The notes beneath the pieces were generated by a model that saw only the letters and a program-made list of their open reading frames with translations, searched no databases and was not told the origin of the DNA. A stretch of DNA of 40,400 bases from an uncultured bacterium (GTDB lineage Bacteria > Bacteroidota > Bacteroidia > 2-12-FULL-35-15): NCBI GenBank assembly GCA_964014945.1, contig CAXHCC010000001.1:1-40400 (forward strand), in the 5' to 3' direction. Positions 1,613 to 29,790 of this stretch are shown here, piece after piece (within the stretch, counting starts at the first letter, position 1; each line of letters opens with the position of its first letter). A program made the translations under genes and the position numbers.

Positions 1613-1620
1613 CCCCCCCC
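1613..1620. repeat. C8 homopolymer tract in the intergenic region between the two adhesin genes
   Basis: Direct read of tacccccccca. It ends 14 nt upstream of a TAnnTTTG-like box. Confidence 0.95.
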
Positions 1621-1747: not shown

Positions 1748-4700
1748 GTGAACGCATTACTCGTTTTGCATACAAAAAATATATTGCGCAAGTTTATTGC
1801 AATATGTTGCTCTGTATTGTTGGGCATAAATGCACATGCGCAATGTTCACTTAACGTGGACTTTAATACCTGGGTGCAAGAAGGAGATCCCGCCAATGGC
1901 AATTGGACCGTAGGTGGAGGTGGCGCAAACGTTTCGCAATCAATTAACGGCGAACCAACTTTTTTTGTAAGTCCACAAAACTTTATAAATGTGGAAATGA
2001 CCGGTAAAATGCGCACAACCGATAACGATGATGACTATATGGGGGTGGTGTTTGGCTATAAAGCACCGGTTGGTAACTCTACTGTTTTTGATACTTGGTT
2101 GGTTGACTGGAAAGAAGAAACCAGCGGTACAGCTGGAGGTAACGAAGGCCTATCTTTAGTTCGGATAAATGGTGATGTTGCTGGACAATATAACCCCTAT
2201 TTCTGGGGGCACAACAGCGACGCTATTTTTAATGTAGTAGATACGGATCATGGTGCAGGAAAAGGCTGGGTTAGAAATCGGACACATGAAATTAAGGTGG
2301 TGTTTACCCTAACCAACATAATTGTTATTGTTGATAGCGACACCGTATTTAAGCATTCTGGTTGTTTTGAACCTGGCCGTTTTGGTTTTTATAACTATTC
2401 TCAAAAAAACGTAACCTACTCCGATTTTGATTACAAGCTAAAAGCCGACTTTAGCGTACTTACCCCTGTTATTTGTTTAGACGATTCTGCAAAGTTTTTA
2501 TCCGTTTGTGGTGTTATACCTGCCAATATAGCTACCTGGGATTGGGATTTTGGTGATGGCACTACCAGCAACCTGCATAACCCCGCACATAAATTCAACA
2601 CCCCAGGTACACATAATATTAAATTGGTATTAACCGATCTTAATGGCTGTAAAGATAGTTTAACAAAAAGTGTATTGGTTAAACCCTTACCGCAAGTAAG
2701 CCTAAGCAACAATATTACAGCTTGCCTTGGCGATGCAGCCCCAAACGTTACCTTCACGGGCGCCAATGCTGTAGCCCCTTATACTTTTTATTATCAGTTA
2801 AATGGCGCTGCGCAACCAGCAGCTGTTTCCACTGGTAATACAAGCACCTTTACCGTTTCAACCGTTGCTCCCACTACACAAATGTATACGCTCGACAGTG
2901 TACAAGCCAGCAATGGCTGTAGTCAAACACAACTAGATACAACAACTGTTAGCGTTAACAGCTCACCAACCGCCACCATTAGCGGAACAACTGTTTTATG
3001 TGCAACCGCCGGCACTACAGATATAACGTTCTCCGCTTCCAACGGAACGCCACCTTATACCTTTTCGTATACTGACCCAACGGGTGCACCCCAAACCATT
3101 TTAAGCTCGGGCACCACTACCCTGGTACCACAGTCAACAACTACAGCTGGTGTTTATACCTACTCGCTCACCAACATAAGCGATGCCAATAACTGCGGCC
3201 AAGCAAGTACTGGAGCAGCTACAGTTACCGTTAACAGCATTCCTACTGCAAGCATAACGGGTGGCACTACCGTTTGTACCAATGCACCATCGCCCAACAT
3301 TACCTTTACTGCAAGTAATGGTACGCCTCCATATACGTTTACGTATAATACAGGCGGCGGTAATATAGCCCTTTCTTCACCCTTAACATCTACCCTACTA
3401 AGCCTGCCTACAGCAACGGCTGGCACCGTTAATTACAACCTAGTTCGTGTAGAAGATGCTAATACCTGTGCACAAACACTATCGGCTACAGAAACTGTTA
3501 CGGTAATGCCTTTACTTTCTGCAACAGTTACTTCTTCTGTTCCAGACATTTGTCAGGGACAAGCTACTAGCTGGAACCTATCTGCTAGTGCGGGAACGGC
3601 TCCTTATACCTTTACCTACCGCATTGACTCCTTAAACGCCAATAATAGCTCTACAGGTACCATTACGGCTACAAGCTCTACAACAGTTGTAGCTTCGCCC
3701 AATACCTACGACGATACATTAGAATTAACCATAACTGGCTTAAGTGATGCCAGCGGATTTAGTTGCCCTACCGCCTCAACGGCTAGCGACAGGCTCATCA
3801 TTAATGCCATACCATCTTCTATAATTAGTGCCTCATTGGGTAATGTTTGCGAAGGCGTAGGAGGTACACAAACCATTACCTTCGACGCAAGTGCCAACCC
3901 TAGTTTGCCTACACCGGTAACCTTTAATTATTACTATACGATAGATGGCGGCGCCCCTGTTAACGGCAGTGTTACCAGCAACCCTGGCGACCTTACCGCT
4001 ACTACAACCTATAATGTGCCTTTAACGGCAAGCCGCACTATTTTTTATAATCAAACGGTTTCTAACTCTACCTGTGGTGGTGGTATTGGTGGAGGATCTG
4101 ATACCATTGATGTATACCCATTACCAACAGCTACCATTATTGGCACTGCCGCCATTTGCGAAACAGGTGCTACTAATATTACATTTACCGGTGCTACTGG
4201 TACGCCTCCTTATACCTTTACCTATAACATTAACGGTGCAGGCAGCTATACCATAACAACCACTGCTGGCAACAGCAGTGTTGATTTGCCGGTTAGCAAT
4301 GTACCCGGCACCTATGCCTACAACCTAGTTGCTGTAAGCGACCAAAAAGGCTGTAGCAATGCACAAACTGGTGCCGCCACCGTTACGATAGACCCATTGC
4401 CAACATTAACAGTGCCAGGCGGGCCCGATACTATTTGTGTGGATAATACCTTAAACATAACAACGGCAAGTAGCAGCAATAGTGCTATTGCATGGACGAG
4501 CAACGGCGCAGGTAACATTAGCAATGCTAACACCATTTCGCCAACTTACAACCCCGCTCCTGCTGATGGCGAAATGCTTGTTACTTTAACGGTTACAATA
4601 AACGGCATTGCAGCATGTTCCAATGCCAACCCCTTAAGCGGCACACATAGGATTTATATTGATAGCTTACCTGCTGCAAGCATAACAAAGAGTAACGCTA

Positions 4701-6301
4701 TTTGCGCAGGAGAAACTGTAAGCTTAGTACAAGGAGACGCTTACTTCAGGCATGGTAGCATCACGTGGACGCATAACGGATTTGGAGCTCCTATAACAAG
4801 CACTGGCTTAACACCCGTGTACACCTCCACTACTACTGAAGGTGGTAATACTGTAACACTTACTATGACGGTTGATGGGCAAGGCGCTTGTAGTACTGCG
4901 CAAGCAACAGCCACCTACCCTCTTACCATTTATGAATTACCTGCCGGAACGGTAAGTGGTGGCACTACCCTTTGTGTGGATGATGCGGCGCCTAGTATTG
5001 CGTTTACCGCCAATGCAGGACAAGCCCCTTATACTTTTCATTACACTAAAAATGGTTTTGATACAACCATGGCAACACCACCCTATACCATTACCCAGCC
5101 AACCAGTATAAGTGGTAATTTTATGTATACGCTTAATAGCATTGTGGATGCCAACAACTGTACTAGCCTTCCGTTTAGTGCTAAGCCTAGCACCACGGTG
5201 GTGGTAAATAACAACCCGAAAGGCGCCTTTGAGCTATCCAGCAAAACCGCTTGCCAAAACAGTCCTGCACAACTCATTTTTACGGGTAATGATGGCTATG
5301 GTAACTATACCTATACCTATTCATTAAATGGTGGCGCAAGCAATACCGTAACAACTATTAATAATAACAGCACAGCAGTGGTTGGTATAAACACCTCAGC
5401 ACAGGGTATACAACCGTATATGCTAACACGGGTTAGCGATGAAAACAATTGCTTTACAACGTATACCCAAGGCGACACCCTGCTAATACACCCATTACCT
5501 TATGCAAGCATTAGTGGCGATACCACCATTTGTAAAGACAGTACTGTGCAAGATATTATCTTGAGCGCTGGCAATGGCAAAGCGCCGTATGACATGGTTT
5601 ATACCCTTAATAACAACTCCGCTAGCGTTACAACAGCAACAAGTGATAGCGTTGTTTCTGTACCAGCAAACAATAACCAAGCGGGCATCTTTGTATATGC
5701 ATTAAAAAGTGTAACCGATGCCAATAACTGTAAACAAAATGTTTCAGGCAGAGTAACCATTAACGTAGTTGAAAATGCCCTTGCAAGTTTTGATTTAGCC
5801 GAAAACAGCAGCACTATAATTGAGCCTTTTGCCCATATTTACGAGAGCTCTATAAATGCCGTAAGTTGGCAATGGAATTTTGATGATGGTATTACTTCTA
5901 ACAGTCCCGACCCACAAACACACATATACAACGATACAGGCGCTTATACCATACATTTGGTAGTTGCCAATAGTTTGGGTTGTTTTGATTCTGTAAGCCA
6001 TATTATGCACATTACACAACCCATATTGCTATATATACCAGAAGCTTTTACGCCTAACGGCGATGGCATTAACGATACGTTTGCTCCTAAAGGGGATGGT
6101 ATTGGCGAATACCTGCTGCACATTTATGATAGGTGGGGCAACTTAATTTTTGTTAGTGATGATATAAATAAGGGCTGGGATGGTACGGCAAATGATGGCA
6201 CCGAAATAGCCCAAATAGATACCTACATATATGTAGTAGAAGCCGAAGACATTAACAACAAAACCTATACCTACCGCGGCGTGTTTAATTTGGTTAAATA
6301 G
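1748..6301 (+). CDS. Giant T9SS type B-sorted adhesin: signal peptide, TSP_C/ConA-like lectin-type domain, PKD domain, about 10 Ig/PKD-like PYTF modules, second PKD domain, type B sorting domain
   Basis: A 1517-aa ORF with signal peptide ...CCSVLLGINAHAQ. The start could be GTG 1748 or TTG 1784 (MRKFIAICC...). PKD motifs: WDWDFGDGTTS and WQWNFDDGITS. Repeated C...(P/A)PYTFxY...C modules. The C-terminus IPEAFTPNGDGINDTF...YDRWGNLIF...GWDG is a type B CTD. The last ~500 aa are collinear with the upstream ORF. Confidence 0.9.
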   Translation: MNALLVLHTKNILRKFIAICCSVLLGINAHAQCSLNVDFNTWVQEGDPANGNWTVGGGGANVSQSINGEPTFFVSPQNFINVEMTGKMRTTDNDDDYMGVVFGYKAPVGNSTVFDTWLVDWKEETSGTAGGNEGLSLVRINGDVAGQYNPYFWGHNSDAIFNVVDTDHGAGKGWVRNRTHEIKVVFTLTNIIVIVDSDTVFKHSGCFEPGRFGFYNYSQKNVTYSDFDYKLKADFSVLTPVICLDDSAKFLSVCGVIPANIATWDWDFGDGTTSNLHNPAHKFNTPGTHNIKLVLTDLNGCKDSLTKSVLVKPLPQVSLSNNITACLGDAAPNVTFTGANAVAPYTFYYQLNGAAQPAAVSTGNTSTFTVSTVAPTTQMYTLDSVQASNGCSQTQLDTTTVSVNSSPTATISGTTVLCATAGTTDITFSASNGTPPYTFSYTDPTGAPQTILSSGTTTLVPQSTTTAGVYTYSLTNISDANNCGQASTGAATVTVNSIPTASITGGTTVCTNAPSPNITFTASNGTPPYTFTYNTGGGNIALSSPLTSTLLSLPTATAGTVNYNLVRVEDANTCAQTLSATETVTVMPLLSATVTSSVPDICQGQATSWNLSASAGTAPYTFTYRIDSLNANNSSTGTITATSSTTVVASPNTYDDTLELTITGLSDASGFSCPTASTASDRLIINAIPSSIISASLGNVCEGVGGTQTITFDASANPSLPTPVTFNYYYTIDGGAPVNGSVTSNPGDLTATTTYNVPLTASRTIFYNQTVSNSTCGGGIGGGSDTIDVYPLPTATIIGTAAICETGATNITFTGATGTPPYTFTYNINGAGSYTITTTAGNSSVDLPVSNVPGTYAYNLVAVSDQKGCSNAQTGAATVTIDPLPTLTVPGGPDTICVDNTLNITTASSSNSAIAWTSNGAGNISNANTISPTYNPAPADGEMLVTLTVTINGIAACSNANPLSGTHRIYIDSLPAASITKSNAICAGETVSLVQGDAYFRHGSITWTHNGFGAPITSTGLTPVYTSTTTEGGNTVTLTMTVDGQGACSTAQATATYPLTIYELPAGTVSGGTTLCVDDAAPSIAFTANAGQAPYTFHYTKNGFDTTMATPPYTITQPTSISGNFMYTLNSIVDANNCTSLPFSAKPSTTVVVNNNPKGAFELSSKTACQNSPAQLIFTGNDGYGNYTYTYSLNGGASNTVTTINNNSTAVVGINTSAQGIQPYMLTRVSDENNCFTTYTQGDTLLIHPLPYASISGDTTICKDSTVQDIILSAGNGKAPYDMVYTLNNNSASVTTATSDSVVSVPANNNQAGIFVYALKSVTDANNCKQNVSGRVTINVVENALASFDLAENSSTIIEPFAHIYESSINAVSWQWNFDDGITSNSPDPQTHIYNDTGAYTIHLVVANSLGCFDSVSHIMHITQPILLYIPEAFTPNGDGINDTFAPKGDGIGEYLLHIYDRWGNLIFVSDDINKGWDGTANDGTEIAQIDTYIYVVEAEDINNKTYTYRGVFNLVK

Positions 6302-8143: not shown

Positions 8144-8341
8144 ATGGACGAAGCCTTTGACCCCGAAAAAATAACCGGCTATTTAGTAAAACCTTATAGT
8201 CAATTGGTAGATTTAATTGGCAAAGAAAAAGCACAAGCCTTGGCGGTTAATTGCGATTATAATTACCATACCATCAGCGGCAAGGTAACCGACCTTACCC
8301 TTAATGACCTGTTTTTTAATTTACCTAAAGATCATATTTAG
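8144..8341 (+). CDS. Hypothetical small protein (65 aa)
   Basis: ORF only. It starts 10 nt after the MORN gene on the same strand. No recognisable motif. Confidence 0.4.
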   Translation: MDEAFDPEKITGYLVKPYSQLVDLIGKEKAQALAVNCDYNYHTISGKVTDLTLNDLFFNLPKDHI

Positions 8342-8587
8342 GCAAGCCCAATTGCTGTAAATTCTTTCCAGTTTCTTTTTTGCGCTCTCAAAACGCCCTA
8401 TTTACAGGCCTTTTGGAGTTCGGACTTTTCTTAGATGTTTTTTGTAACCCTAGCACTTGGGGCTGCGTTAAGGGATATTTAAAAAGCAAATTAACTGCTA
8501 GCAGTATGATAGAAATATATGCAATTGTGTATATACAGATGTTGGCATTAATGTAAAATGACAAAACAAGATAATACCGAACGGTAA

Positions 8588-9166
8588 ATGACAAGACCAT
8601 TCAAAAGTGACTTAGTAATTGATGAACAAATCTCAGATGTCGGCATAAGGGCTTATCATGTAGGATTTGACAAAAAAGAATTTCGTTTAACCCCTCTTGT
8701 TGACATTATTAGAAACGTTATTCCTGAATTTTCTCTTGGTTATCATTGCGGTGAGAACATCCCATTAACAGAGATTGTTGAGAGACTAAAAGAAGCTGCT
8801 GAAACAGTTTATCTAACCGAGAAGTATCAAACTAGGGGAGAATTTGGAGAGCTTATTTTACACCTACTATTAAGAGACTTCCACGATACTATTCCGTTAA
8901 TTTCCAAAATGTATTTTAAGGACTCCCACAATGTTCCGGCTCATGGGTTTGATGGTGTTCAAATTACAATAAATGGGGATGAGAAAAAGCTATGGTTAGG
9001 AGAATCCAAATTATACAAAACTGGTAAAGTTGGTATTAGAGATTTACTTGGTGACATTACAAAACATGTAAACGAAGACTACATAAGAAAGGAATTTAAT
9101 CTCATTTCTAGAAAACTACCTAGTTCCGTACCTGAAAATAGAATATTGGCGTCAATTAATGGATAA
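8588..9166 (+). CDS. hamA: HamA-like (DUF1837-type) protein, N-terminal part containing a PD-(D/E)xK-like nuclease core
   Basis: RGEFGELILHLLL, then GFDGVQI...LWLGESKLY, giving a D...ExK arrangement (D122, E139, K141). It sits directly upstream of, and is translationally coupled into, an SF2 helicase. The length is short for the family unless it is joined to the next ORF. Confidence 0.6.
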   Translation: MTRPFKSDLVIDEQISDVGIRAYHVGFDKKEFRLTPLVDIIRNVIPEFSLGYHCGENIPLTEIVERLKEAAETVYLTEKYQTRGEFGELILHLLLRDFHDTIPLISKMYFKDSHNVPAHGFDGVQITINGDEKKLWLGESKLYKTGKVGIRDLLGDITKHVNEDYIRKEFNLISRKLPSSVPENRILASING

Positions 9167-9431
9167 ACACCAAAGGCTAGATAAAATATTCTCGAACATT
9201 GTAATTCCAATGGTTTGCACATACAATAGTGAATTATATAATAATCATAACGATAACACTAAGGAGTATTTTGATGATTTTCTAAATGAATGCAATGACC
9301 TGTTTACTAGATTCAATAATGGGAAACCAGAATCAGATGTAGAAATTATTTTACTCCTCTTACCTGTTCCAGATAAAGATGCTTTAAATAGTGAACTAGA
9401 TAAAAGGTTAAAATCAATGCAAAGAATATGA
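9159..9431 (+). CDS. HamA-like C-terminal part (separate 90-aa ORF in a different frame)
   Basis: It overlaps the previous ORF by 8 nt (ATGGATAA). Its frame is already open from 9087. 192 + 90 aa is about the expected size of a single HamA. Its stop overlaps the helicase start (ATGA at 9428-9431). Confidence 0.5.
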   Translation: MDKHQRLDKIFSNIVIPMVCTYNSELYNNHNDNTKEYFDDFLNECNDLFTRFNNGKPESDVEIILLLLPVPDKDALNSELDKRLKSMQRI

Positions 9432-11632
9432 GTTTTGAATCTTATAACCAAGCCGTTGATTTCCTCTCGCAGAAAAAAGAAATATCAACTGAAGACAGTT
9501 TCGATTTGTCCAAGTATTGCACATACCTTTTACGTAACAACGAAATTGAAGGTAGGGACTTAGTCATAAGAATACATGACAGTTGGGATTTTTTGCCTGA
9601 GCATACAAAACCTATATGGAACGATATTACTGAGTCTGCGGGATTATACCCATATGTGAACCCAGAATACTTATCAAAGAGTGCTCTCTTAAGGTTTGAA
9701 TATCATAAGTCCCCCTTTTTAGAAGGCGTGTATTTGCACGAGGAACAACAACAACTATCAGTAGAATTACAAAGCAAAAGGTCACTTGTCGTAAGCGCAC
9801 CGACTAGTTTTGGCAAAAGTTTACTAATAGAAGAGGTAATTGCAAGCAAATTGTATAAACAAATTGTTATTATACAACCCACCCTTGCATTACTAGATGA
9901 GACAAGGAAAAAATTATTAAAATACAAGGACTCTTACAAGGTTGTTGTTTCAACGAGTCAAGAGCCCGATAATGAAAAAGGAAATATTTTCCTTTTCACC
10001 GGTGAACGAGTCGTTGAATATGACAAGTTTCCTAAAATAGAGTTTTTCGTAATTGATGAGTTCTACAAGCTTAGTATTGATAGAGATGATGACAGAGCTA
10101 TTGCATTGAATCAAGCATTTCACAGACTACTCAAATTTACAAACAAGTTCTACTTATTGGGTCCCATGATTAAAAATATCCCGGTAAACTTTAAAAATAA
10201 ATTTGAACTTACTTGGTTCCCTACAGAGTTCGCAACAGTTGCAGTTGATGAAACTAGCAACATGGTTGAAGGTAAACTAAAAGCAAAGGAAAAGAAGGAG
10301 CTTAAAAAGCTAAGTCTTTTCAAGTATCTCATTACCCAGAATGAACAAACAATCGTATACTGCTCTGCACCAAATAGAACAACAAACCTTACTCTTGAAT
10401 TTTTACAATTCCTAAAAGAAAATGTTATTAAAGTCAATAACCCTTATGTTGAAGAAAACAATGATGTTATTGAATGGATAAAAGAGAATATTAACGGTAA
10501 TTGGTCATTAAATGATGCTCTTGAATTTGGAATTGGTTTTCATCACGGTGCTGTTCCTAGGCATTTAGGTAGCACTATAGTTGATTACTTTAACAATGGG
10601 TCTATTAGGTGGCTATTTTGCACTTCAACACTCATAGAAGGAGTAAATACATCTGCTAAGAATGTTGTCTTATTTGATAAGAAAAAAGGTCCAAAACCAA
10701 TTGATTTCTTTGATTACAAAAATATTGCAGGACGCTCTGGGCGAATGAGAAAGCACTTTGTTGGAAATGTAATCCGTTTTGAAGACCAGCCAGAACAAAT
10801 GGAGTTATTTGTTGATATTCCACTATTCAACCAAGAAGAAGCACCTTTAGAAATATTGATAGGCTTAGAAGATGAAGAAATTGAAGAAAATGCCAAGCCT
10901 AGACTTGAGGAGTTCAATAGTCTTCCAGATGATTTAAAGAATGTCGTTAGATTGAATGCAGGCATATCAATTGATGCCCAATTGGAAATAGTAAAAAAAT
11001 TAGAATCAAACCTTCCTTATTACAACAAGGAGTTAGCTTGGTCTTCATTACCAAAGAGTTTTGATAACCTTAGCACCATTATTGAGTTATGTTGGGATAC
11101 CTTAGCAGGCCCAGGTGATAAGACTTATATTGAAGGTATTGGTAGACTTTCTGCACGATGGTTAGCTAGTTTTACGTTTTCCTATATAAATTTGAAATCA
11201 ATAGGAGCAGTAGTAAACACTTATATCAATGATTCCTTTTGGATTGAAAAAATTCCAGATAGACAAAAAAGAATTGATACTGCTACATATTCCATATTGC
11301 ACATTACTCGCCATTGGTTTGACTACAAACTGCCTAAGTGGTTAAATGTAGTGTCTAATTTGCAAGAGTATGTTTTTAAAAAGAACGATTTAAAATACGG
11401 GAACTACTCTTTCATTTCCAGTAGTATAGAAAACGGTTTTTTACACCCTAATATAGCGGCTTTGAGTGAATATGATATTCCTCTTTCTGCTATTAGAAAA
11501 TTAAAGAAATACATCAACAAAGACAGAACTCCTGAAATGAATATTATTAATCTGAATCAACTTTCTGATGAAGAACTTTTATCAAATAGTCTACTAAAGT
11601 ATGAGATTGTTAAAATAAGGAGTGCATTTTGA
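9428..11632 (+). CDS. hamB: SF2 (Ski2/DExH-like) helicase, HamB-like
   Basis: Motif I SAPTSFGKS (about 9794-9820). Motif II FVIDEFY (about 10046-10066). TSTLIEGVN. Motif VI AGRSGR (10727-10744). It has a long alpha-rich C-terminal extension and is coupled to the DUF1837-like gene. Confidence 0.6.
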   Translation: MSFESYNQAVDFLSQKKEISTEDSFDLSKYCTYLLRNNEIEGRDLVIRIHDSWDFLPEHTKPIWNDITESAGLYPYVNPEYLSKSALLRFEYHKSPFLEGVYLHEEQQQLSVELQSKRSLVVSAPTSFGKSLLIEEVIASKLYKQIVIIQPTLALLDETRKKLLKYKDSYKVVVSTSQEPDNEKGNIFLFTGERVVEYDKFPKIEFFVIDEFYKLSIDRDDDRAIALNQAFHRLLKFTNKFYLLGPMIKNIPVNFKNKFELTWFPTEFATVAVDETSNMVEGKLKAKEKKELKKLSLFKYLITQNEQTIVYCSAPNRTTNLTLEFLQFLKENVIKVNNPYVEENNDVIEWIKENINGNWSLNDALEFGIGFHHGAVPRHLGSTIVDYFNNGSIRWLFCTSTLIEGVNTSAKNVVLFDKKKGPKPIDFFDYKNIAGRSGRMRKHFVGNVIRFEDQPEQMELFVDIPLFNQEEAPLEILIGLEDEEIEENAKPRLEEFNSLPDDLKNVVRLNAGISIDAQLEIVKKLESNLPYYNKELAWSSLPKSFDNLSTIIELCWDTLAGPGDKTYIEGIGRLSARWLASFTFSYINLKSIGAVVNTYINDSFWIEKIPDRQKRIDTATYSILHITRHWFDYKLPKWLNVVSNLQEYVFKKNDLKYGNYSFISSSIENGFLHPNIAALSEYDIPLSAIRKLKKYINKDRTPEMNIINLNQLSDEELLSNSLLKYEIVKIRSAF

Positions 11633-11724
11633 AAAAGAATAATACCGCCAAGCACCAACAAGATATATAGTGCATACCCTGCGGGGTACTCACTATTTAC
11701 AAACCGTTATAGAAAATCAAAACA

Positions 11725-12138
11725 ATGAATAAATCTATTGAATTTTTTAAACAATACTATTTAATAGTAGTAATCATCTGTCTGTGTCTCTCTATCTTTT
11801 TCAATTTTTTATCGAATGACTATGAGCTTAACTCTAAAACAATTGACACTGTTAAAAATGGTAAAGTGTTTGAGACTACTTATTACAAAATAGACAGTAA
11901 GAAACCTATCTTCGAAATTCTATCCGCTGTATTTCTCAACCTTGGAATTTCAACATTCATCGCCATCTTCTTTGTAAATTATCTTGACAAGAAGGAAAAA
12001 CAAGAATTTGAAGATAAATTAATGGAATTCCAAAAGAAAACAGCTAAAGATGCTATTGAGTCTGTATTTAATAGGACAATCGAAAAAGAGTTCTTTGACA
12101 TTATTAAATATGACCTTCTCAATGCTAAACTACTTTGA
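11725..12138 (+). CDS. 2-TM membrane protein fragment (first third of a longer disrupted gene)
   Basis: Two hydrophobic helices (YYLIVVIICLCLSIFFNFL and IFEILSAVFLNLGISTFIAIFFVNYL) are followed by a charged helix. It ends at TGA 12136-12138, but coding character continues in the same frame. Confidence 0.6.
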   Translation: MNKSIEFFKQYYLIVVIICLCLSIFFNFLSNDYELNSKTIDTVKNGKVFETTYYKIDSKKPIFEILSAVFLNLGISTFIAIFFVNYLDKKEKQEFEDKLMEFQKKTAKDAIESVFNRTIEKEFFDIIKYDLLNAKLL

Positions 12139-12317
12139 AAGAATGCTAAATGGATTTATGATATTAAGGAAGGTAATGAAGGGCATTTAACATTAGTGAG
12201 AACTCTAAATTATAAACTAAAAAACCTTACACAAAAAGAAATTAAAGAGCCAATCCATTTAACTTACAGCAACAATATTCATTCTCAAGCACAAATAGAG
12301 GCTATAAAGGTGAAAAG

Positions 12318-12325
12318 GGGGGGGG
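12318..12325. repeat. G8 homopolymer at the frame junction of the disrupted gene
   Basis: Direct read of aaaagggggggggaataa. The two frames overlap only at 12308-12330. G7 would fuse them as ...KGEKGGNNDFEDI... Confidence 0.95.
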
Positions 12326-12696
12326 AATAATGATTTTGAAGACATTCAATTAACTCAAACATCCCAAGGTAGTGGCTTTGACAAAGAAGAGGAAATTGTT
12401 ATAATTCCACCAAACTCTGAAATTGAAGTAATTATTATTCTGCGACAAGACTTTAAGCGAGAATATATTTATGAAACCCATTTCACTGTATATCCAATTA
12501 TTAATTTAGAAATTAATGTTTCATTTCCTGAAAACTACGTTTTTGAATTATCCGGTGATTCAATATCAACCAAATACGATTTAAAGCTAAATACTGATAC
12601 AAAGAAAATCTATGAGTTTAGTGGAGGTATTTATAAAGGGCAAGGGATAGAATTTATATGTAGAAAAAAATAATTTCGATAACAAACTGTATAAAA

Positions 12697-12733
12697 CCCC
12701 GCCTAAGCGTAGTTTGTAAAACGCTTACTTATT
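12697..12733. repeat. Hairpin repeat copy A (degenerate right arm)
   Basis: ccccgcctaagcgtagtttgtaaaacgcttacttatt, located 24 nt after the stop of the disrupted gene. It is near-identical to copy B. Confidence 0.8.
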
Positions 12734-12815
12734 ATATTAATTTAACGGTGGCCGAGAAAACTTTAACCGAAGCTTAATAACAAAGAAAAATAATTGGGTG
12801 TTGGCAAACATTAAA

Positions 12816-13253
12816 ATGAAAAAGATTGCAGCTTTCTGTTTAACTCTATTGATAGTTGGTTGCACTACCACCGGAAGGCACTATTTAAGAAACATGACCG
12901 ACAATGATGCATTAATTACTATTAGCTTCGATAATGCAATTCAAATCTCTGACTCCACCAACTCGAGGTACGTCTACGAACCAAAATTGAAGACAATAAA
13001 ATTCGCCCTTTATAAGAGGCTCAAGCAGAATTTAAAAGTTATTCAGTTAAGTAATAAACAACTACAATTCACTCTTCCTGCAAAGTCAACGGCATATTTA
13101 GGAGTAGGACAAAATACACGTCTGTGGGGTTTTAATTCTATAACAATACAGAGCTTAAACAGCGTAGATACAATGAATTGTAAGAACTCTGAGGAACTAA
13201 TTATTAAACGGCATGGATTATTAAGTTACACAGCTCATTATGACATAAAATAA
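12816..13253 (+). CDS. Hypothetical lipoprotein
   Basis: MKKIAAFCLTLLIVGC has a classic lipobox, so ATG 12816 is preferred over the tracked GTG 12798. No other motif was recognised. Confidence 0.65.
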   Translation: MKKIAAFCLTLLIVGCTTTGRHYLRNMTDNDALITISFDNAIQISDSTNSRYVYEPKLKTIKFALYKRLKQNLKVIQLSNKQLQFTLPAKSTAYLGVGQNTRLWGFNSITIQSLNSVDTMNCKNSEELIIKRHGLLSYTAHYDIK

Positions 13254-13342
13254 AAAAAACGTTAACCCAAACTAATATGAAAGCTTATATTTTATTGGGA
13301 TATATTGCATTTGTTTTTGTGACGTGCGCTGTTTATCGTTTA

Positions 13343-13380
13343 CCCCACCTAAGCGTAGTTTGAAACTACGCTTACTTATT
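13343..13380. repeat. Hairpin repeat copy B (perfect 11-bp stem)
   Basis: ccccacctaagcgtagtttgaaactacgcttacttatt. The stem is aagcgtagttt-g-aaactacgctt. Confidence 0.8.
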
Positions 13381-13488
13381 CTAATTACTTCAGCATGCTA
13401 GGGAGCTATACCCATCATTATTTTGTAATTTAACCCTTGTTTAAACATCAAGTATACATAGCAATAACAAAAAATTAGTCCATTAACC

Positions 13489-14028
13489 ATGGGAGTAAAA
13501 ACCTTAAAACTAGCTTACGTTTTTTCTTTTGGTATGCTAATTATTAGTGGCTTGTTCCACCTATTAACCTACTTCCCCACCAATGCTTATGATAACCAAT
13601 TGTTCATTTTTGTGCTAACAGTCGCTACATTCCCTCCATTTTATATTGGTATAAAAAGTTTAAAAAAAGAGTTTGCTGCGCAACAAATTAAGAACCCACA
13701 TATTGCATACCAGCAAGTACTTTCTTCGGTTAAAGAAGCCTTATCGAAAAACGTTATCTGGGTGGGCATTGCACTTGTTGCTTACGTGTTTTTTAATTTC
13801 TTTTTCTCTATACTTTTTTTAAATCAAGGTTTAGGTCCAGACATTGTAAACGGCACCTATGTGCTGCAAGATCATGGTCGTATTGTAAAAGAAATAACGG
13901 CAACAGAATATGCCCTACACCGTAGATATGAAATGCGCGGCATAAGCGGTCACCCCGTTTTATTCCAGTTTATTGCGCTAAACATGATAGACTGGAGCCT
14001 CAAAAAAAGTAAAACACCAGCCGATTAA
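13489..14028 (+). CDS. Hypothetical multi-pass membrane protein
   Basis: At least three hydrophobic segments: FSFGMLIISGLFHLLTYF, LFIFVLTVATFPPFYIGI, VIWVGIALVAYVFFNFFFSILFL. No family was recognised. Confidence 0.5.
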   Translation: MGVKTLKLAYVFSFGMLIISGLFHLLTYFPTNAYDNQLFIFVLTVATFPPFYIGIKSLKKEFAAQQIKNPHIAYQQVLSSVKEALSKNVIWVGIALVAYVFFNFFFSILFLNQGLGPDIVNGTYVLQDHGRIVKEITATEYALHRRYEMRGISGHPVLFQFIALNMIDWSLKKSKTPAD

Positions 14029-25872: not shown

Positions 25873-28800
25873 TTAATACGCTAAGTTAGGCCCTAACCAC
25901 CGTTCTGCTTCTTCTAAGCTCATTTTTTTTCTATTGGCATAATCTTCCACTTGGTCTTTATCTAATTTACCAACTCCAAAATAATGTGCTTCTGGGTGTG
26001 CAAAATAAATACCACTCACGGCAGCAGTTGGCACCATTGCCAAACTATCGGTTAAGGTAATGCCTGCGTTTTTTTCTACGTCTAACAGTTTAAACAAAGT
26101 TGGTTTTTCTGTATGGTCGGGTTGCGCCGGATAACCTGGCGCCGGACGAATACCCTTGTATTCTTCTTTAATTAATTCATTGTTGCTAAACGTTTCATCG
26201 CTGGCATAGCCCCAAATTTCTTTTCGTACTTTTTGGTGCATTAGTTCCGTAAACGCTTCCGCTAACCTATCCGCCAAAGCTTTCAACATGATGGCCGAAT
26301 AGTCATCATGATCTGCTTCATAACGTGCCACATGCTCATCTATACCTATACCGGTTGTGCATGCAAAAGCGCCAATATAATCTTGTCCTTCCTCTTTGGG
26401 TTGTACAAAATCAGCTAAGGCTACATTGTATTTTCCTGCAGGTTTTTTTGTTTGCTGACGTATGGAATGAAAGGTGCATAACACCTCTTCACCATTTTCA
26501 TCTAACACTTCTATATCATCATCGTTAACAGCATTTGCTGGAAATAAACCTATTACCGCATTGGCTTTTAACCATTTTTCATCTATTATTTGCTGCAACA
26601 TTTTTTGTGCATCAGCAAACAATTTCTTGGCCTCCTCTCCTCTTTCAGGGTCGTCTAATATACGCGGATAAGCACCTTTCATTTCCCAACTGATAAAAAA
26701 CGGCGTCCAATCTATATAGTCTACTACCTCTTTTAAATCGAAGTCTTCAAATACTTGTATGCCTAATTTTTTAGGTGCAACAGTTGCTGTTTTTGTCCAG
26801 TCGATCGGAAATTTATTAGCCCTTGCTTCTGCAATGCTTACAAATTTATTTTTCGATTTGGCGTTTTTATTTTGCTCTCTTACCCTGTCGTAATCTTTGT
26901 TTAGCTCTTGCACAAAATCGGCTTTCAGGTCTTCAGAAATTAAGCTACCTGCAACAGGTACAGATCTACTGGCATCATTAACATGTACAACAGGGTGTGA
27001 ATAATGCGGTGCAATTTTAACCGCAGTATGCACTTTAGATGTAGTGGCCCCTCCAATCAATAACGGAATGGTAAAGCCTTCTCGCTCCATTTCTTTGGCC
27101 ACGTGTACCATTTCATCTAATGACGGAGTTATTAATCCACTTAAACCAATCACATCTACATTATGATTTTTAGCTTCTTCTAATATTTTTTCTGGCGCTA
27201 CCATAACGCCTAAATCTACAATCTCATAATTGTTACAAGCCAATACAACACCTACAATATTTTTACCAATATCGTGCACATCGCCTTTAACCGTGGCCAT
27301 TAAAATTTTACCGCTATTGCTAGGTCCGGCAACATTTATATTGGCCTCTTTTTCGGCTTTTAAAAAAGGGTCTAAATAAGCTACTGCCTTCTTCATAACA
27401 CGCGCACTTTTTACCACTTGTGGTAAAAACATTTTACCACTTCCAAACAAATCACCTACCACATTCATGCCCGCCATCAAGGGCCCTTCAATTACATTTA
27501 AAGGCTTGCCTAATTCTTTTCTGGCTTCTTCTGTATCCTCATCAATATATTCTACAATACCTTTTACCAAGGCATGTGTTATACGCTCTTGCACGCTTCC
27601 TTGTCGCCATGTTTCATCCTTAGTGTTTTTCTCAACGGAAGTGCCCTTTAATTTTTCTGCATGTTCAATTAACAACTCTGTTGCTTCATCGCTTCTATCA
27701 AACAAAACGTCTTCAACAAGTTTTAACAAATCTTTAGGCACATCGTCGTACACCTGCAGCATAGCAGGGTTTACAATACCCATATCCATACCACATTTAA
27801 TGGCGTGGTATAAAAAGGCAGCGTGTATTGCTTCGCGCACTACATTGTTTCCTCTAAACGAAAACGACACATTACTTACCCCGCCACTTACATGTGCATG
27901 TGGTAAGTTTTCGCGTATCCATTTGGTGGCATCAAAAAAGTCGGTAGCATTTTTACGGTGCTCTTCCATACCTGTTGCCACCGGAAAAATATTCGGGTCA
28001 AAAATGATATCCTGCGGAGGAAAGTTCACTTCGTTTACCAAAATATCATAGGCCCTTTTACAAATTTCAATTCGCCTTTCATAGGTATCCGCCTGCCCTA
28101 CTTCATCAAATGCCATTACAATAACAGCCGCGCCGTATTGTTTAATTTTATGTGCGTAATTAATAAAATTTTCCTCGCCTTCTTTTAAAGAAATAGAGTT
28201 CACAATTGCCTTGCCTTGCACACATTTTAATCCGGCCTCAATCACACTCCACTTTGAAGAGTCTATCATGATAGGCACACGTGAAATATCCGGTTCTGAA
28301 GCAATGAGGTTTAAGAATTTAACCATCACCTCTTCACTATCCAACATGCCTTCGTCAACGTTTATGTCGATTACTTGTGCGCCATTTTCTACTTGATCGC
28401 GTGCAATAGAAAGTGCCTCTTCGTACTCTTCATTTTTAATGAGTCGCAAGAACTTTTTTGACCCCGTAACGTTGGTACGTTCACCAACATTTAAGAAGTT
28501 ACTTTCTGGTCTAATGGTTAGCGGTTCTAAACCACTTAAGTGCATTAGTTCATCGCGCTGTGGTTTTTTTCGCGGCTTACTTTCGGCTGCTAATTGCGCA
28601 ATGCGATTTATATGATCGGGCGTTGTACCACAACACCCTCCTATTAAGTTTACAAATCCTGACTTTAAAAAGTCGTCAACCTGTTGCCCCATTTCATCCG
28701 CATCTTGGTCGTATTCGCCAAACTGATTAGGCAAGCCCGCATTTGGGTAAACGCTAACAAAAAAGGGGGCCTTTTCCGATAACTCAGAAACATAGGGCCT

Positions 28801-29559
28801 CATTTCTTTGGCGCCTAATGAGCAGTTTAAGCCCACACTTAATAAATCAATATGTGAAACAGAATTCAAAAATGCTTCTGTTGTTTGTCCTGATAAGGTT
28901 CTGCCACTAGCATCCGTAATAGTACCCGAAACCATAACCGGTAAACGCTTACCAATTTCTTTGGCGTGGTTTTCAATAGCAAACAATGCGGCTTTGGCAT
29001 TCAGTGTATCAAAAATTGTTTCAACCAACAACAAGTCTGCACCACCATCTACCAAGCCCCTCACCTGTTCTTGGTAGGCCTCTACCAAGGCATCAAATGT
29101 AATGGCCCTAAAACCAGGATCGTTTACATCAGGAGAAATAGAAAGAGTTCTGTTTGTTGGCCCCATGGCACCTGCCACAAATTTGGCTATATCCTTTTTA
29201 TCTGGGTTTTCTTCATAAAATTTTGCAATGGCCGCTTTTCCGTTTTTAGCTGCTTCAACATTTAACTCATAGGCCAACTCCTCCATGTTATAATCAGCCA
29301 TACCAACAGAGGTGCTGCTAAAGGTATTAGTGGCAATAATATCTGCACCGGCATTTAAATAGCTTAAATGAATGGCCTGAATTATTTCTGGTTGAGTAAT
29401 AGAAAGTAAATCGTTATTTCCTTTTAGGTCAGTTTCAAAATCGGCAAAACGTTTCCCCCTAAAGTCTTTTTCCTCTAGTTGGTATTCTTGTATCATAGTG
29501 CCCATGGCACCATCAATTACAAGTATGCGTTTTTCTAATTCTTTTCTTATATCTGACAT
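25873..29559 (-). CDS. metH: Cobalamin-dependent methionine synthase
   Basis: A 1228-aa ORF with all modules. Hcy domain (GGCCGTTP). Pterin-binding domain. B12-binding motif (DVHDIGKN). AdoMet activation domain ([15 protein letters not shown]). Confidence 0.95.
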
Positions 29560-29631
29560 ATTTGCTCAAAAAAAAAGCCCTTCTTACGTATTATCGTCAG
29601 AGGAGCTTCATTATTATTTTTATTACTCTGA

Positions 29632-29733
29632 CTTATCTGCATTTGTGAAAATCACAAATCAGGAATTAGCACCTTTCCATTACTGGGGTTGCTAAGGTTT
29701 CACCGGGCATGTCCCTCCACCTTTCTTGATAAG
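29632..29733 (-). promoter_or_regulatory. SAM-I (S-box) riboswitch aptamer in the metH leader
   Basis: Minus-strand read: CTTATCAAGAAAGGTGGAGGGACATGCCCGGTGAAACCTTAGCAACCCCAGTAATGGAAAGGTGCTAATTCCTGATTTGTGATTTTCACAAATGCAGATAAG. The P1 arms are CTTATC / GATAAG. The conserved cores GGTGGAGGGA, GCCC..GAAACC, GCAACC and GGTGCTAA are all present. Confidence 0.85.
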
Positions 29734-29790
29734 TACACGAAAAGCAAGCTTTTCGTTATTATTTAAACGTTACTACTAAAAGAACTTGTG

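What the first reader, a model, noticed from the sequence alone, without database searches (positions are those of the whole stretch)
11725..12673. Cryptic gene of about 316 codons after the helicase, mostly invisible to the ORF track
The track lists only 11725-12138 (137 aa, two TM helices plus a charged helix). Coding-like sequence nevertheless continues for another 535 nt. There are 63 more codons in the same frame straight after an in-frame TGA (12136). A further 115 codons follow in the +1 frame, down to a stop at 12671-12673; they contain no Met and so were never called. The reconstructed protein would be an N-terminal 2-TM anchor fused to a beta-strand-rich soluble domain (alternating patterns such as EIVIIPPNSEIEVIIILRQ and THFTVYPIINLEINVSF). 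A membrane-anchored protein directly downstream of a nuclease/helicase defence pair is the layout expected for an effector or accessory component. I cannot assign it to any known family by eye, so it could be an undescribed third component.
Basis: seen in the sequence. Interest (0 to 1): 0.7.

Follow-up and report, generated by a model that had tools for sequence, protein, structure and literature searches.

The report
Broken membrane-anchored defence-island gene beside Hachiman
The "cryptic gene" is real: it is a recently broken copy (one stop codon plus one frameshift) of an unnamed family of membrane-anchored proteins that sits in many kinds of anti-phage gene clusters, and it is not a specific third part of the neighbouring Hachiman system.

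Summary
ORF 11725-12138 ends at TGA 12136-12138, the same frame continues for 63 codons, a G9 run lies at 12317-12325, and the +1 frame runs 115 codons to TAA 12671-12673. Reading through the TGA and removing one G gives a 315-aa protein.

This protein aligns end to end with intact 307-337-aa homologues (E down to 3e-83; a profile search found 310 clusters). The TGA replaces an Arg kept in 73 of 81 homologues, and the G run falls in a variable loop.

The AlphaFold2 model (pLDDT 94.9) shows two TM helices, a stalk helix and a cytoplasmic VIT/M1-N-like beta-sandwich. No Pfam, NCBIfam, PADLOC or PHROGs model matches.

No HamA or HamB was found near homologues in any fetched locus from another organism (16 contexts had readable flanks). 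They sit:
- inside type I R-M loci
- inside a CRISPR-Cas operon
- next to SIR2-HerA, a TIR protein with AbiL, or a type III-like R-M system
- in a prophage lysogeny module
- sometimes in polysaccharide loci

HamA is itself frameshifted, so this low-GC island is decaying.

Verdict: this is a pseudogene of an uncharacterised, mobile family that is a candidate stand-alone defence gene. The Hachiman-component reading is not supported.

The parts
11725..12135 (+). 5' part of the pseudogene (codons 1-137): cytoplasmic N-terminus, TM1 (about residues 12-31), a roughly 28-aa beta-hairpin loop (35-56), TM2 (about 62-85) and a charged, conserved juxtamembrane stalk helix (to 132).
   Evidence: ORF list and translation. 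Hydropathy peaks at residues 13-24 and 70-78. AF2 helices 3-31 and 59-118. Aligned with homologues.
12136..12138 (+). Premature TGA stop replacing a conserved arginine (residue 138 of the RKNAxW motif). Most simply a CGA>TGA transition.
   Evidence: The aligned column is R in all 8 close homologues and in 73 of 81 in the wide alignment. The same 137-aa truncated product is on record on 6 contigs from NCBI, Logan and ENA sources. The long ORFs of the window are intact under table 11, so TGA is not a sense codon here.
12139..12316 (+). Continuation of the original frame (codons 139-197): start of the beta-sandwich domain.
   Evidence: Same frame, no stop. Codon score 0.17 in this frame only. Contains conserved W143, Y163 and N167.
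12317..12325 (+). G9 homopolymer carrying the frameshift; G8 would be in frame. It encodes Arg-Gly-Gly in a variable loop between strands.
   Evidence: Sequence. The two open frames overlap only at 12314-12327. Columns 198-200 are variable in homologues. No homologue gene has a G/C run of 5 or more. Runs of 8 or more G/C are over-represented in the window.
12326..12673 (+). 3' part in the +1 frame (115 codons plus TAA): the rest of the beta-sandwich, including the conserved P268 and GQG (305-307) motifs.
   Evidence: Translation. Alignment. Q306 is invariant in 81 of 81 and G307 in 74 of 81. Codon score 0.25. AF2 pLDDT above 95 in this region.
12696..12735 (+). Hairpin element after the stop codon, terminator-like. 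A second copy lies at 13342-13382, after the next ORF.
   Evidence: Local alignment of the two intergenic regions. The second copy was picked up by the terminator scan.
8588..9431 (+). hamA (DUF1837 nuclease) split by a 1-nt frameshift near 9159-9166 into 192-aa and 90-aa pieces.
   Evidence: Pfam HamA positions 2-151 and 158-230; PADLOC HamA1 5.6e-62 and 2e-19. Sequence at the junction. The same split alleles occur on other contigs.
9428..11632 (+). hamB (Hachiman helicase), intact, 734 aa.
   Evidence: PADLOC HamB1 1.9e-221 over profile positions 8-704 of 709. Pfam DEAD and Helicase_C.
8200..13800 (.). Low-GC island (0.30-0.36, against 0.40-0.44 in the flanks) holding hamA, hamB, the pseudogene and two small ORFs for unknown envelope proteins.
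   Evidence: Composition profile.

Best explanation
SHOWN. Bases 11725-12673 are one gene of 315 codons. It has been inactivated twice: a nonsense mutation at a conserved Arg codon (TGA, 12136) and a +1G frameshift in a G run (G9, 12317-12325).

It belongs to an unnamed protein family of about 310 clusters at 50% identity, nearly all 300-345 aa, found in at least four phyla. The family architecture is: cytoplasmic N-terminus, TM1, short outside hairpin, TM2, conserved stalk helix, then a cytoplasmic beta-sandwich of the VIT / M1-aminopeptidase-N-domain type.

The family is a solitary, horizontally mobile gene with no fixed partner. In most readable contexts it sits as a passenger in defence islands or in a prophage lysogeny module. 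In this genome it landed beside a type I Hachiman system, in a low-GC island that is now decaying (hamA is also frameshifted). The parts after the lesions are as conserved as in intact homologues, so the inactivation is recent.

INFERRED. When intact, the protein most likely acts as a stand-alone abortive-infection or superinfection-exclusion protein.
- The cytoplasmic beta-sandwich would bind a ligand or a phage product.
- The signal would pass through the conserved stalk helix.
- The two-helix membrane anchor would then oligomerise and damage the inner membrane.
This is the same logic as Cap15-type 2TM effectors, but without a signalling partner.

Three natural fusions put the whole module in front of a histidine-kinase core plus receiver. 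They show that the sandwich is cytoplasmic and that the module can serve as a signal-input unit.
For: Gene reconstruction:
- sequence and frames; 8 intact homologues, 97-100% coverage, R at the TGA site; 310 clusters; frame-specific codon signal; R in 73 of 81; invariant N167 and Q306 retained; identity after the lesions 0.38-0.42, against 0.39 between intact homologues.

The lesions are real:
- The truncated 137-aa product and the split HamA occur on other contigs, including Illumina/Nextera-based assemblies.

Structure:
- pLDDT 94.9; 6fpy VIT domain E 2e-7; M1 aminopeptidase N-domains; OST1.

Topology:
- In P0109, P0113 and P0146 the kinase core follows the sandwich directly, with no TM segment between.

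Contexts (homologue position):
- Inside type I R-M loci: L004, L006, L007, L029.
- Between cas5 and cas3: L017.
- Directly upstream of SIR2-HerA: L022.
- Next to a TIR/ThsB-like protein and AbiLi/AbiLii: L029.
- Upstream of SNF2-HKD + DUF4391 + type III MTase: L032.
- Downstream of a CI-like repressor in a temperate phage: L026.

Other:
- No HamA or HamB near any homologue.
- Low-GC island.
Against: - No experiment exists for any family member, and no defence-HMM library contains it. The defence role rests on guilt by association from about 16 contexts.
- Several contexts are not defence-related: RND efflux (L001), MlaD (L005), surface-protein/rhodanese genes (L033), and polysaccharide biosynthesis clusters (L008/L009/L021, L034/L035, partly L002).
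- The fold matches are generic beta-sandwiches with TM-scores of only 0.3-0.4, and no ligand site is identified.
- The G9 length was not confirmed independently. The other contigs stop at 12296.
- The other assemblies share contig ends and low coverage, so they may be re-assemblies of related read sets rather than independent strains.
Confidence: 0.65

Rival explanations
1. One reading: the protein is a dedicated third component (membrane effector or accessory) of this Hachiman system and works together with HamA and HamB.
For: It lies 92 nt downstream of hamB on the same strand, in the same low-GC island. Hachiman is known to recruit extra modules: HamC, PezAT, trypsin-MBL (PMC11914072; PMC13064477). 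Several homologues also lie next to helicase- or ATPase-containing systems: Cas3, HerA, SNF2, HsdR.
Against: No homologue locus from another organism contains HamA or HamB, and no neighbour is conserved. The protein has no DUF3223/HamC hit and no PADLOC hit. PADLOC classifies this window's HamA and HamB best as type I, the two-gene form. The partners in other loci are mechanistically unrelated to one another.
Confidence: 0.05
2. Phase-variable (contingency) gene: the G run switches the gene ON (G8) and OFF (G9) by slipped-strand mispairing, and the window shows the OFF state.
For: A 9-G run in a gene of about 30% GC is very unusual. Runs of 8 or more G/C occur in two tracts, against 0.59 matches expected. 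The run sits in a variable surface loop where Arg-Gly-Gly is tolerated. None of 18 homologue genes has a G/C run of 5 or more, so the run is a lineage-specific acquisition. A second run (C8, 1613-1620) lies in a promoter-like position upstream of a giant surface-protein gene. The sequence after the shift is undecayed.
Against: The upstream TGA cannot be reverted by slippage, so in this lineage G8 would still give a 137-aa product. No length variant was found (0 hits for G7-G13 in JGI metagenomes). No read-level data are available.
Confidence: 0.15
3. Assembly or sequencing artefact: the gene is really intact, and the stop and frameshift are errors.
For: Homopolymer runs are the classic site of indel errors. 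The G9 length itself was not covered by any other contig.
Against: The TGA allele and the HamA frameshift (which is not at a homopolymer) recur on other contigs from NCBI, Logan and ENA sources, including a SPAdes contig with a Nextera adapter, that is, short reads. The ORFs of 1517 aa and 1228 aa elsewhere in the window are intact, so the assembly is not generally error-prone.
Confidence: 0.05
4. The family is not an immune gene. It is a membrane-anchored cytoplasmic sensor or scaffold of envelope or surface-polysaccharide physiology that merely accumulates in variable genome regions.
For: Three lineages place it in capsule/EPS/O-antigen-type clusters. One places it after an RND pump, and one among surface-protein genes with an overlapping start. 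The histidine-kinase fusions show a signalling use of the module. VIT, OST1 and M1-N-like sandwiches are binding domains, not toxins.
Against: 9 of about 16 contexts are bona fide defence loci, plus one prophage lysogeny module. In some the gene is inserted inside R-M and CRISPR-Cas operons, where cargo is typically defensive. Even the EPS locus L034 carries HicAB, RelB and an AIPR (Abi-like) gene nearby. The distribution is patchy across four phyla and the genes are always AT-rich.
Confidence: 0.2

Closest known systems
Cap15 (CBASS 2TM + beta-barrel effector) and other TM effectors (Cap14, TM-type ThsA)
   Same: Two N-terminal TM helices followed by a cytoplasmic all-beta domain, small size, and residence in defence loci. 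Cap15's mechanism (ligand binding to the beta domain drives oligomerisation and inner-membrane disruption; PMC10419184) is the model proposed here.
   Different: There is no sequence relationship (no PADLOC hit). The beta domain is a large VIT/M1-N-like sandwich of about 175 aa, not the Cap15 barrel (7N35 is absent from the top 50 Foldseek matches). A long conserved stalk helix is present. No CD-NTase or other fixed signal-producing partner was seen, so the family appears solitary.
Hachiman accessory genes (HamC/DUF3223 of type II Hachiman; PezAT; trypsin-MBL modules)
   Same: An extra gene adjacent to hamAB in one operon-like array.
   Different: HamC is a DUF3223 protein encoded upstream of hamA (PMC11914072, PMC13064477). 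This protein is a 2TM beta-sandwich downstream of hamB, has no DUF3223 hit, and its homologues never accompany HamAB.
VIT domain (ITIH1, 6fpy), the N-terminal domain of M1 aminopeptidases/LTA4H, OST1/ribophorin I, and BDI_1141 (3kd4)
   Same: The best structural matches of the C-terminal domain (Foldseek E 2e-7 to 1e-4, about 215-230 aligned columns). These are non-catalytic binding or scaffold beta-sandwiches.
   Different: Identity is only 7-14% and TM-scores are 0.3-0.4. There is no Pfam VIT hit. Here the sandwich is cytoplasmic, tethered to a 2-TM hairpin, and stands alone.
Prophage lysogeny-module exclusion genes (lambda rexB/sieB-type membrane proteins)
   Same: In L026 the homologue lies downstream of, and on the same strand as, the CI-like repressor of a temperate phage. 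This is the classic position of membrane-bound superinfection-exclusion genes (the comparison with lambda is from my own knowledge).
   Different: No sequence or fold similarity was tested or expected. RexB is a polytopic membrane protein that works with RexA.
Poly-G phase-variable restriction-modification and surface genes (Haemophilus, Neisseria, Campylobacter contingency loci)
   Same: A long G run inside the coding region of a defence-island gene, where one length is in frame (from my own knowledge of contingency loci).
   Different: No length variation was observed. An independent nonsense mutation upstream makes the switch moot in this lineage.

Membership tests
Unnamed 2TM + cytoplasmic beta-sandwich family (P0001-P0157) | Full-length collinear similarity to intact members | tested here: met
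   33-47% identity over 97-100% of 315 aa, E 5e-58 to 3e-83. Profile hits reach 2.5e-139.
Unnamed 2TM + cytoplasmic beta-sandwich family (P0001-P0157) | Family-wide conserved residues (W143, N167, P268, Q306, G307) | tested here: met
   All are present in the repaired translation. N167 and Q306 are invariant in 81 of 81.
Unnamed 2TM + cytoplasmic beta-sandwich family (P0001-P0157) | Uninterrupted reading frame (functional member) | tested here: not met
   TGA at codon 138 and a +1 frameshift in G9. This copy is a pseudogene member.
Hachiman third component (HamC, type II Hachiman) | DUF3223 domain / PADLOC HamC-type model | tested here: not met
   No Pfam or PADLOC family at E <= 0.1. HamC definition taken from PMC11914072.
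Hachiman third component (HamC, type II Hachiman) | Conserved co-occurrence of homologues with HamA/HamB | tested here: not met
   tblastn with this window's HamA and HamB found no hit in any homologue locus from another organism. No conserved neighbour.
Cap15-like CBASS TM effectors | Two N-terminal TM helices plus a C-terminal cytoplasmic beta domain | tested here: met
   AF2, hydropathy, and the kinase fusions that fix the cytoplasmic location.
Cap15-like CBASS TM effectors | Homology of the beta domain to the Cap15 nucleotide-binding barrel | tested here: not met
   No PADLOC match. 7N35 is not among the top 50 PDB fold matches.
Cap15-like CBASS TM effectors | Operon with a CD-NTase | tested here: not met
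   No nucleotidyltransferase appears among the annotated neighbours of any locus. Not every neighbour could be scanned.
VIT / M1-aminopeptidase N-domain beta-sandwich fold | Structural similarity of the C-terminal domain | tested here: met
   6fpy E 2.2e-7; 3kd4 2.6e-7; IRAP, ERAP and LTA4H 3e-6 to 1e-4. This is fold-level similarity only; TMq is 0.3-0.4.
VIT / M1-aminopeptidase N-domain beta-sandwich fold | Sequence-profile membership (Pfam VIT or Peptidase_M1_N) | tested here: not met
   No Pfam hits. The PDB profile search returned nothing at E <= 10.
Phase-variable contingency gene | Long homopolymer in the coding region with one in-frame length | tested here: met
   G9 at 12317-12325; G8 restores the frame.
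Phase-variable contingency gene | Observed tract-length variation within or between populations | tested here: inconclusive
   A pattern scan for G7-G13 in JGI metagenomes gave 0 hits. Related contigs end at 12296, before the run. No reads are available.
Phase-variable contingency gene | Gene otherwise intact, so that switching restores function | tested here: not met
   Upstream nonsense codon at 12136.
Anti-phage defence gene (generic) | Enrichment next to known defence systems | tested here: met
   9 of about 16 readable contexts are defence loci, plus 1 prophage lysogeny module. This is a small, non-random sample with no formal background statistic.
Anti-phage defence gene (generic) | Experimental protection against phage | not testable with these tools
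   Needs cloning and a phage challenge.

The most novel reading that the evidence does not exclude
The intact family is a previously undescribed, widespread single-gene anti-phage system. It would be a 2-TM protein whose cytoplasmic VIT-like beta-sandwich senses infection directly and triggers membrane disruption. In this lineage it had additionally evolved a poly-G contingency switch before being knocked out. The recurrent adjacency to TIR or SIR2 proteins (L002, L022, L029) could even mean that some members act as membrane effectors of NAD-derived signals.
Probability: 0.3. Interest if true: 0.6.

Novelty: new variant of a known kind. Interest (0 to 1): 0.4.

Why it matters
For this genome, the result means that both the Hachiman nuclease gene and its neighbour are dead, so the island should not be counted as active immunity.

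More generally, the repair exposes an unannotated protein family: 310 clusters, at least four phyla, and no Pfam, NCBIfam, PADLOC or PHROGs model. The family repeatedly rides inside R-M, CRISPR-Cas, SIR2-HerA and TIR/AbiL loci and in a prophage immunity region. That makes it a concrete, cheap-to-test candidate for a new stand-alone membrane-acting defence gene.

The confident structure model (pLDDT 95) and the natural histidine-kinase fusions define its topology and suggest a sensor function.

The case also shows that adjacency to one defence pair is weak evidence for a multi-component system.

Tried and rejected
1. Family assignment. Pfam, NCBIfam, PADLOC and PHROGs scans of the repaired protein and of intact homologues gave no meaningful hit. 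A PDB sequence-profile search found nothing at E <= 10. BFVD fold search gave only an M1 aminopeptidase and noise.

2. Hachiman linkage. tblastn with HamA and HamB against all fetched loci found only this lineage's own contigs.

3. Conserved partner. All-against-all BLASTP of neighbours found none.

4. Invertible segment or repeat as the reason three contigs end at 12296. No inverted repeats lie near the site. The coincidence is better explained by low-coverage re-assemblies of related read sets: coverage is about 2x, there is a Nextera adapter at the L012 end, and contig ends also coincide at 8175/8176 and 11279/11283.

5. Tract-length variants. A metagenome pattern scan for G7-G13 gave 0 hits.

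6. Genetic-code reassignment of TGA. Rejected, because long ORFs are intact under table 11.

7. An exact-product look-up of HamB found nothing, probably because the database gene call uses a different start.

8. The wide 82-sequence alignment was too divergent for locus scanning, so the 26-sequence alignment was used instead.

9. Literature. No paper mentions the one named member, WP_135599684, and none describes a VIT-like TM defence protein.

10. Rfam and tRNA scans found nothing at the locus.
Full report
**1. The observation**

- The listed ORF 11725-12138 (137 aa) ends at TGA 12136-12138.
- The same frame then stays open for 63 codons (12139-12327) before TAA TGA.
- The +1 frame is open from 12314 and runs to TAA 12671-12673 (115 codons from 12326).
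- The two open frames overlap only in 12314-12327. The G9 run at 12317-12325 fills nearly all of this 14-nt stretch, so the frameshift is localised to the run. Deleting one G (G8) joins the frames.
- The repaired product is 315 aa.

The signal is not chance.
- Codon-usage log-odds, trained on 16 long ORFs of the window, are highest in the proposed frame for each of the three segments (-0.01, 0.17 and 0.25 bits per codon; HamB scores 0.14). Every other frame scores between -0.4 and -1.5.
- G/C runs of 8 or more are over-represented: 3 overlapping matches in two tracts, against 0.59 expected.

**2. It is a real gene family, and this copy is broken**

Homologues:
- A profile search of 1.84 billion cluster representatives found 310 clusters at E <= 1e-3 and 96 at E <= 1e-30. 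Nearly all full-length members are 300-345 aa.

The lesions in the alignment:
- The TGA falls on an arginine that is R in all eight close homologues and in 73 of 81 in the wide alignment. A C>T change of CGA is the simplest cause.
- The G run encodes Arg-Gly-Gly in a variable loop.
- All family-wide conserved residues downstream of both lesions are retained (W143, N167, P268, Q306, G307).
- The segments after the lesions are as similar to homologues (0.38 and 0.42) as intact homologues are to each other (0.39). The inactivation is therefore recent.

Independent support for the lesions:
- The 137-aa truncated product is on record on six contigs from NCBI, Logan and ENA sources.
- Three ENA contigs are 99.9-100% identical to the window over 11279-12296.
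- One of them starts with a Nextera adapter, so the TGA is seen in short-read data.
- These contigs share ends and have about 2x coverage, so they may be re-assemblies of related read sets rather than independent strains.
- None reaches the G run, so its length is not independently confirmed.
- TGA is not a sense codon here, because ORFs of 1517 and 1228 aa are intact under table 11.

**3. The neighbourhood in the window**

- Upstream lies a type I Hachiman system. HamB (9428-11632) is intact (PADLOC HamB1, 1.9e-221).
- HamA (DUF1837) is split by a 1-nt frameshift near 9159-9166 into 192-aa and 90-aa pieces, which match profile positions 8-190 and 193-282.
- The same split alleles occur on other contigs.
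- The region from about 8200 to 13800 is a low-GC island (0.30-0.36, against 0.40-0.44 in the flanks).
- There are thus three inactivating lesions within about 4 kb of an acquired island. I noticed no split ORF among the long ORFs elsewhere in the window. The island is decaying.

**4. Structure and topology**

With an 82-sequence alignment, AlphaFold2 gives mean pLDDT 94.9 and pTM 0.73. The elements are:

| Residues | Element |
|---|---|
| 3-31 | Helix; hydrophobic core 12-31 (TM1) |
| 35-56 | Beta-hairpin |
| 59-118 | 60-residue helix; hydrophobic part about 62-85 (TM2), then a charged stalk carrying the conserved FQKxTAKDA motif |
| 121-132 | Helix |
| 141-314 | Thirteen-strand beta-sandwich |

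Fold matches:
- Foldseek against the PDB matches the VIT domain of ITIH1 (6fpy, E 2e-7), BDI_1141 (3kd4), lpg2210 (4g2a), the N-terminal domains of M1 aminopeptidases and LTA4H, and OST1/ribophorin I.
- Identity is 7-14% and TM-scores are 0.3-0.4. These are generic binding sandwiches.
- No catalytic motif is evident.

Topology from natural fusions:
- Three natural fusions (P0109, P0113, P0146; 703-761 aa) put the whole module in front of a histidine-kinase core and a receiver domain.
- In P0109 and P0113 an H-box and an HATPase_c domain can be seen. All three carry a receiver domain.
- No TM segment lies between the sandwich and the kinase part.
- This fixes the topology as N-in/C-in, with only the roughly 28-aa hairpin outside. 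It also shows that the module can serve as a signal-input unit.

**5. Is it a Hachiman component?**

No.
- I fetched 35 loci. About 16 distinct homologue contexts from other organisms had readable flanks.
- tblastn with this window's HamA and HamB found nothing in any of them.
- All-against-all BLASTP showed no conserved neighbour at all.
- The known third Hachiman gene, HamC, is a DUF3223 protein encoded upstream of hamA in about 3.8% of systems (PMC11914072, PMC13064477). The present protein has no such hit.

**6. Where the family lives**

Defence or mobile-element contexts:

| Locus | Source | Context of the homologue |
|---|---|---|
| L004 (= L018, L019) | Fibrobacter | After HsdM, HsdS and an FRG/PDC-S15 protein; before a SocA/Panacea toxin-antitoxin pair and an AAA_21 ATPase |
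| L006 | Treponema | After HsdS; before RhuM and Fic |
| L007 | Bacteroidia | Between HsdM-HsdS-DUF6119 and HsdR |
| L029-L031 | metagenome | HsdS, FRG, TIR/ThsB-like protein, the homologue, then AbiLi/AbiLii |
| L017 | metagenome | Between cas5 and cas3 of a type I CRISPR-Cas operon |
| L022 | metagenome | Immediately upstream of SIR2-HerA (PADLOC 1e-118 and 4e-155) |
| L032 | metagenome | Upstream of SNF2-HKD + DUF4391 + type III methyltransferase |
| L002 | metagenome | After a TIR-like fragment |
| L026 | temperate phage | CI-like S24 repressor, DUF2511, then the homologue: the lysogeny-module 'moron' position |

Other contexts:
- After an RND efflux pump (L001).
- Near MlaD (L005).
- Among surface-protein genes (L033).
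- In polysaccharide-biosynthesis clusters (L008/L009/L021, L034/L035, and downstream in L002). L034 also carries HicAB, RelB and an AIPR gene nearby.

General features:
- Hosts span Gammaproteobacteria, Fibrobacterota, Spirochaetota and Bacteroidota.
- All copies are AT-rich (0.21-0.35 GC).
- The picture is a solitary, mobile gene that is strongly, but not exclusively, associated with defence islands.

**7. Mechanism**

What is shown: the architecture, the topology, the solitary occurrence, the context bias, and the pseudogene state.

What is inferred: the intact protein is a stand-alone abortive-infection or exclusion factor.
- The cytoplasmic sandwich would bind a trigger.
- The conserved stalk would transmit the signal.
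- The 2-TM hairpin would oligomerise to damage the membrane.
- This follows the logic established for Cap15, which has two N-terminal TM helices plus a beta-barrel sensor and disrupts the membrane by oligomerising (PMC10419184).

Membership in the Cap15 family fails. There is no PADLOC hit, 7N35 is not among the top 50 fold matches, and no CD-NTase neighbour was seen.

The main rival for the family's role is a non-immune envelope or polysaccharide-related sensor, supported by the polysaccharide contexts and the kinase fusions.

**8. The G run**

- A G9 run in a 30% GC gene is striking, and none of 18 homologue genes has even a G5 or C5 run.
- It may have been a contingency switch (G8 ON, G9 OFF).
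- The upstream TGA makes switching futile now. No length variants were found.
- I rate this reading at 0.15.

**9. Verdict**

- The reading as a third Hachiman component is not supported.
- The feature is a recently inactivated member of an uncharacterised membrane-anchored family that is a reasonable candidate for a new single-gene defence system.
- The window copy itself is non-functional.
- Interest is moderate (0.4). The family is worth a phage-challenge experiment, but nothing here overturns current understanding.

Noticed in passing
window 8588-9431 (junction near 9159-9166): hamA (DUF1837 nuclease) is split by a 1-nt frameshift into 192-aa and 90-aa ORFs that overlap by 8 nt (ATGGATAA), while hamB is intact. 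The split is not at a homopolymer, and it recurs on other contigs (L027, L028). It is untested whether the two halves could still work as a split protein.
   Followed up: partly
window 1613-1620: A C8 run lies in the intergenic region between ORF 66-1577 and the 1517-aa repeat-rich surface-protein ORF (1748-6301). It sits about 15 nt upstream of a TAnnTTTG motif (1635-1642), a motif I know as the Bacteroidota -7 promoter element. This is a possible phase-variable promoter. Together with the G9 run, it suggests that G/C homopolymers may be contingency sites in this organism.
   Followed up: no
window 12696-12735 and 13342-13382: A hairpin element of about 45 nt (ACCCCRCCTAAGCGTAGTTTG..ACGCTTACTTATT) is repeated after the pseudogene and after the next ORF (12798-13253). 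It looks like a terminator. There are only these two copies in the window.
   Followed up: partly
L010, L011, L012 (= window 11279/11283/11599 to 12296); L027, L028 (start at window 8175/8176): Contigs from three ENA assembly accessions end at exactly the same window position (12296, 21 nt before the G9 run) and share other ends. L012 begins with a Nextera adapter and has about 2x coverage. These are probably re-assemblies of related read sets. A systematic coverage drop before the G run cannot be excluded.
   Followed up: partly
P0109, P0113, P0146 (database proteins, 703-761 aa): The whole 2TM + beta-sandwich module occurs fused to a histidine-kinase core plus receiver domain. This makes it a previously unannotated cytoplasmic input domain of hybrid sensor kinases.
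   Followed up: partly
L029 6727-8954; L002 1027-2339; L022 837-4783: In three lineages the homologue is directly adjacent to a TIR/ThsB-like protein or to SIR2(-HerA). This hints that some members might be membrane effectors of NAD-derived signalling, in the manner of Thoeris.
   Followed up: no
L017 2450-3904 and 6121-7098: A type I CRISPR-Cas operon carries two inserted passenger genes: an AAA_21 ATPase among the upstream cas genes, and the 2TM family member between cas5 and cas3.
   Followed up: no
window 29630-29735 (-): A SAM riboswitch (RF00162, 83.6 bits) lies upstream of the 1228-aa ORF 25873-29559 on the minus strand.
   Followed up: no
window 12798-13253 and 13489-14028: Two small ORFs in the same low-GC island (a lipoprotein-like 145-151 aa product and a 179-aa membrane protein) have no Pfam or NCBIfam hit, and no homologue was found in any fetched locus from another organism. 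Their relation to the island is unknown.
   Followed up: partly
L007 8270-9880; window 9159-9431: A DUF6119 protein (536 aa, E 2.5e-133) sits next to the homologue inside a type I R-M locus. The C-terminal HamA fragment of the window gave a faint DUF6119 hit (E 0.076), which might indicate a distant relationship between the HamA C-terminus and DUF6119.
   Followed up: no
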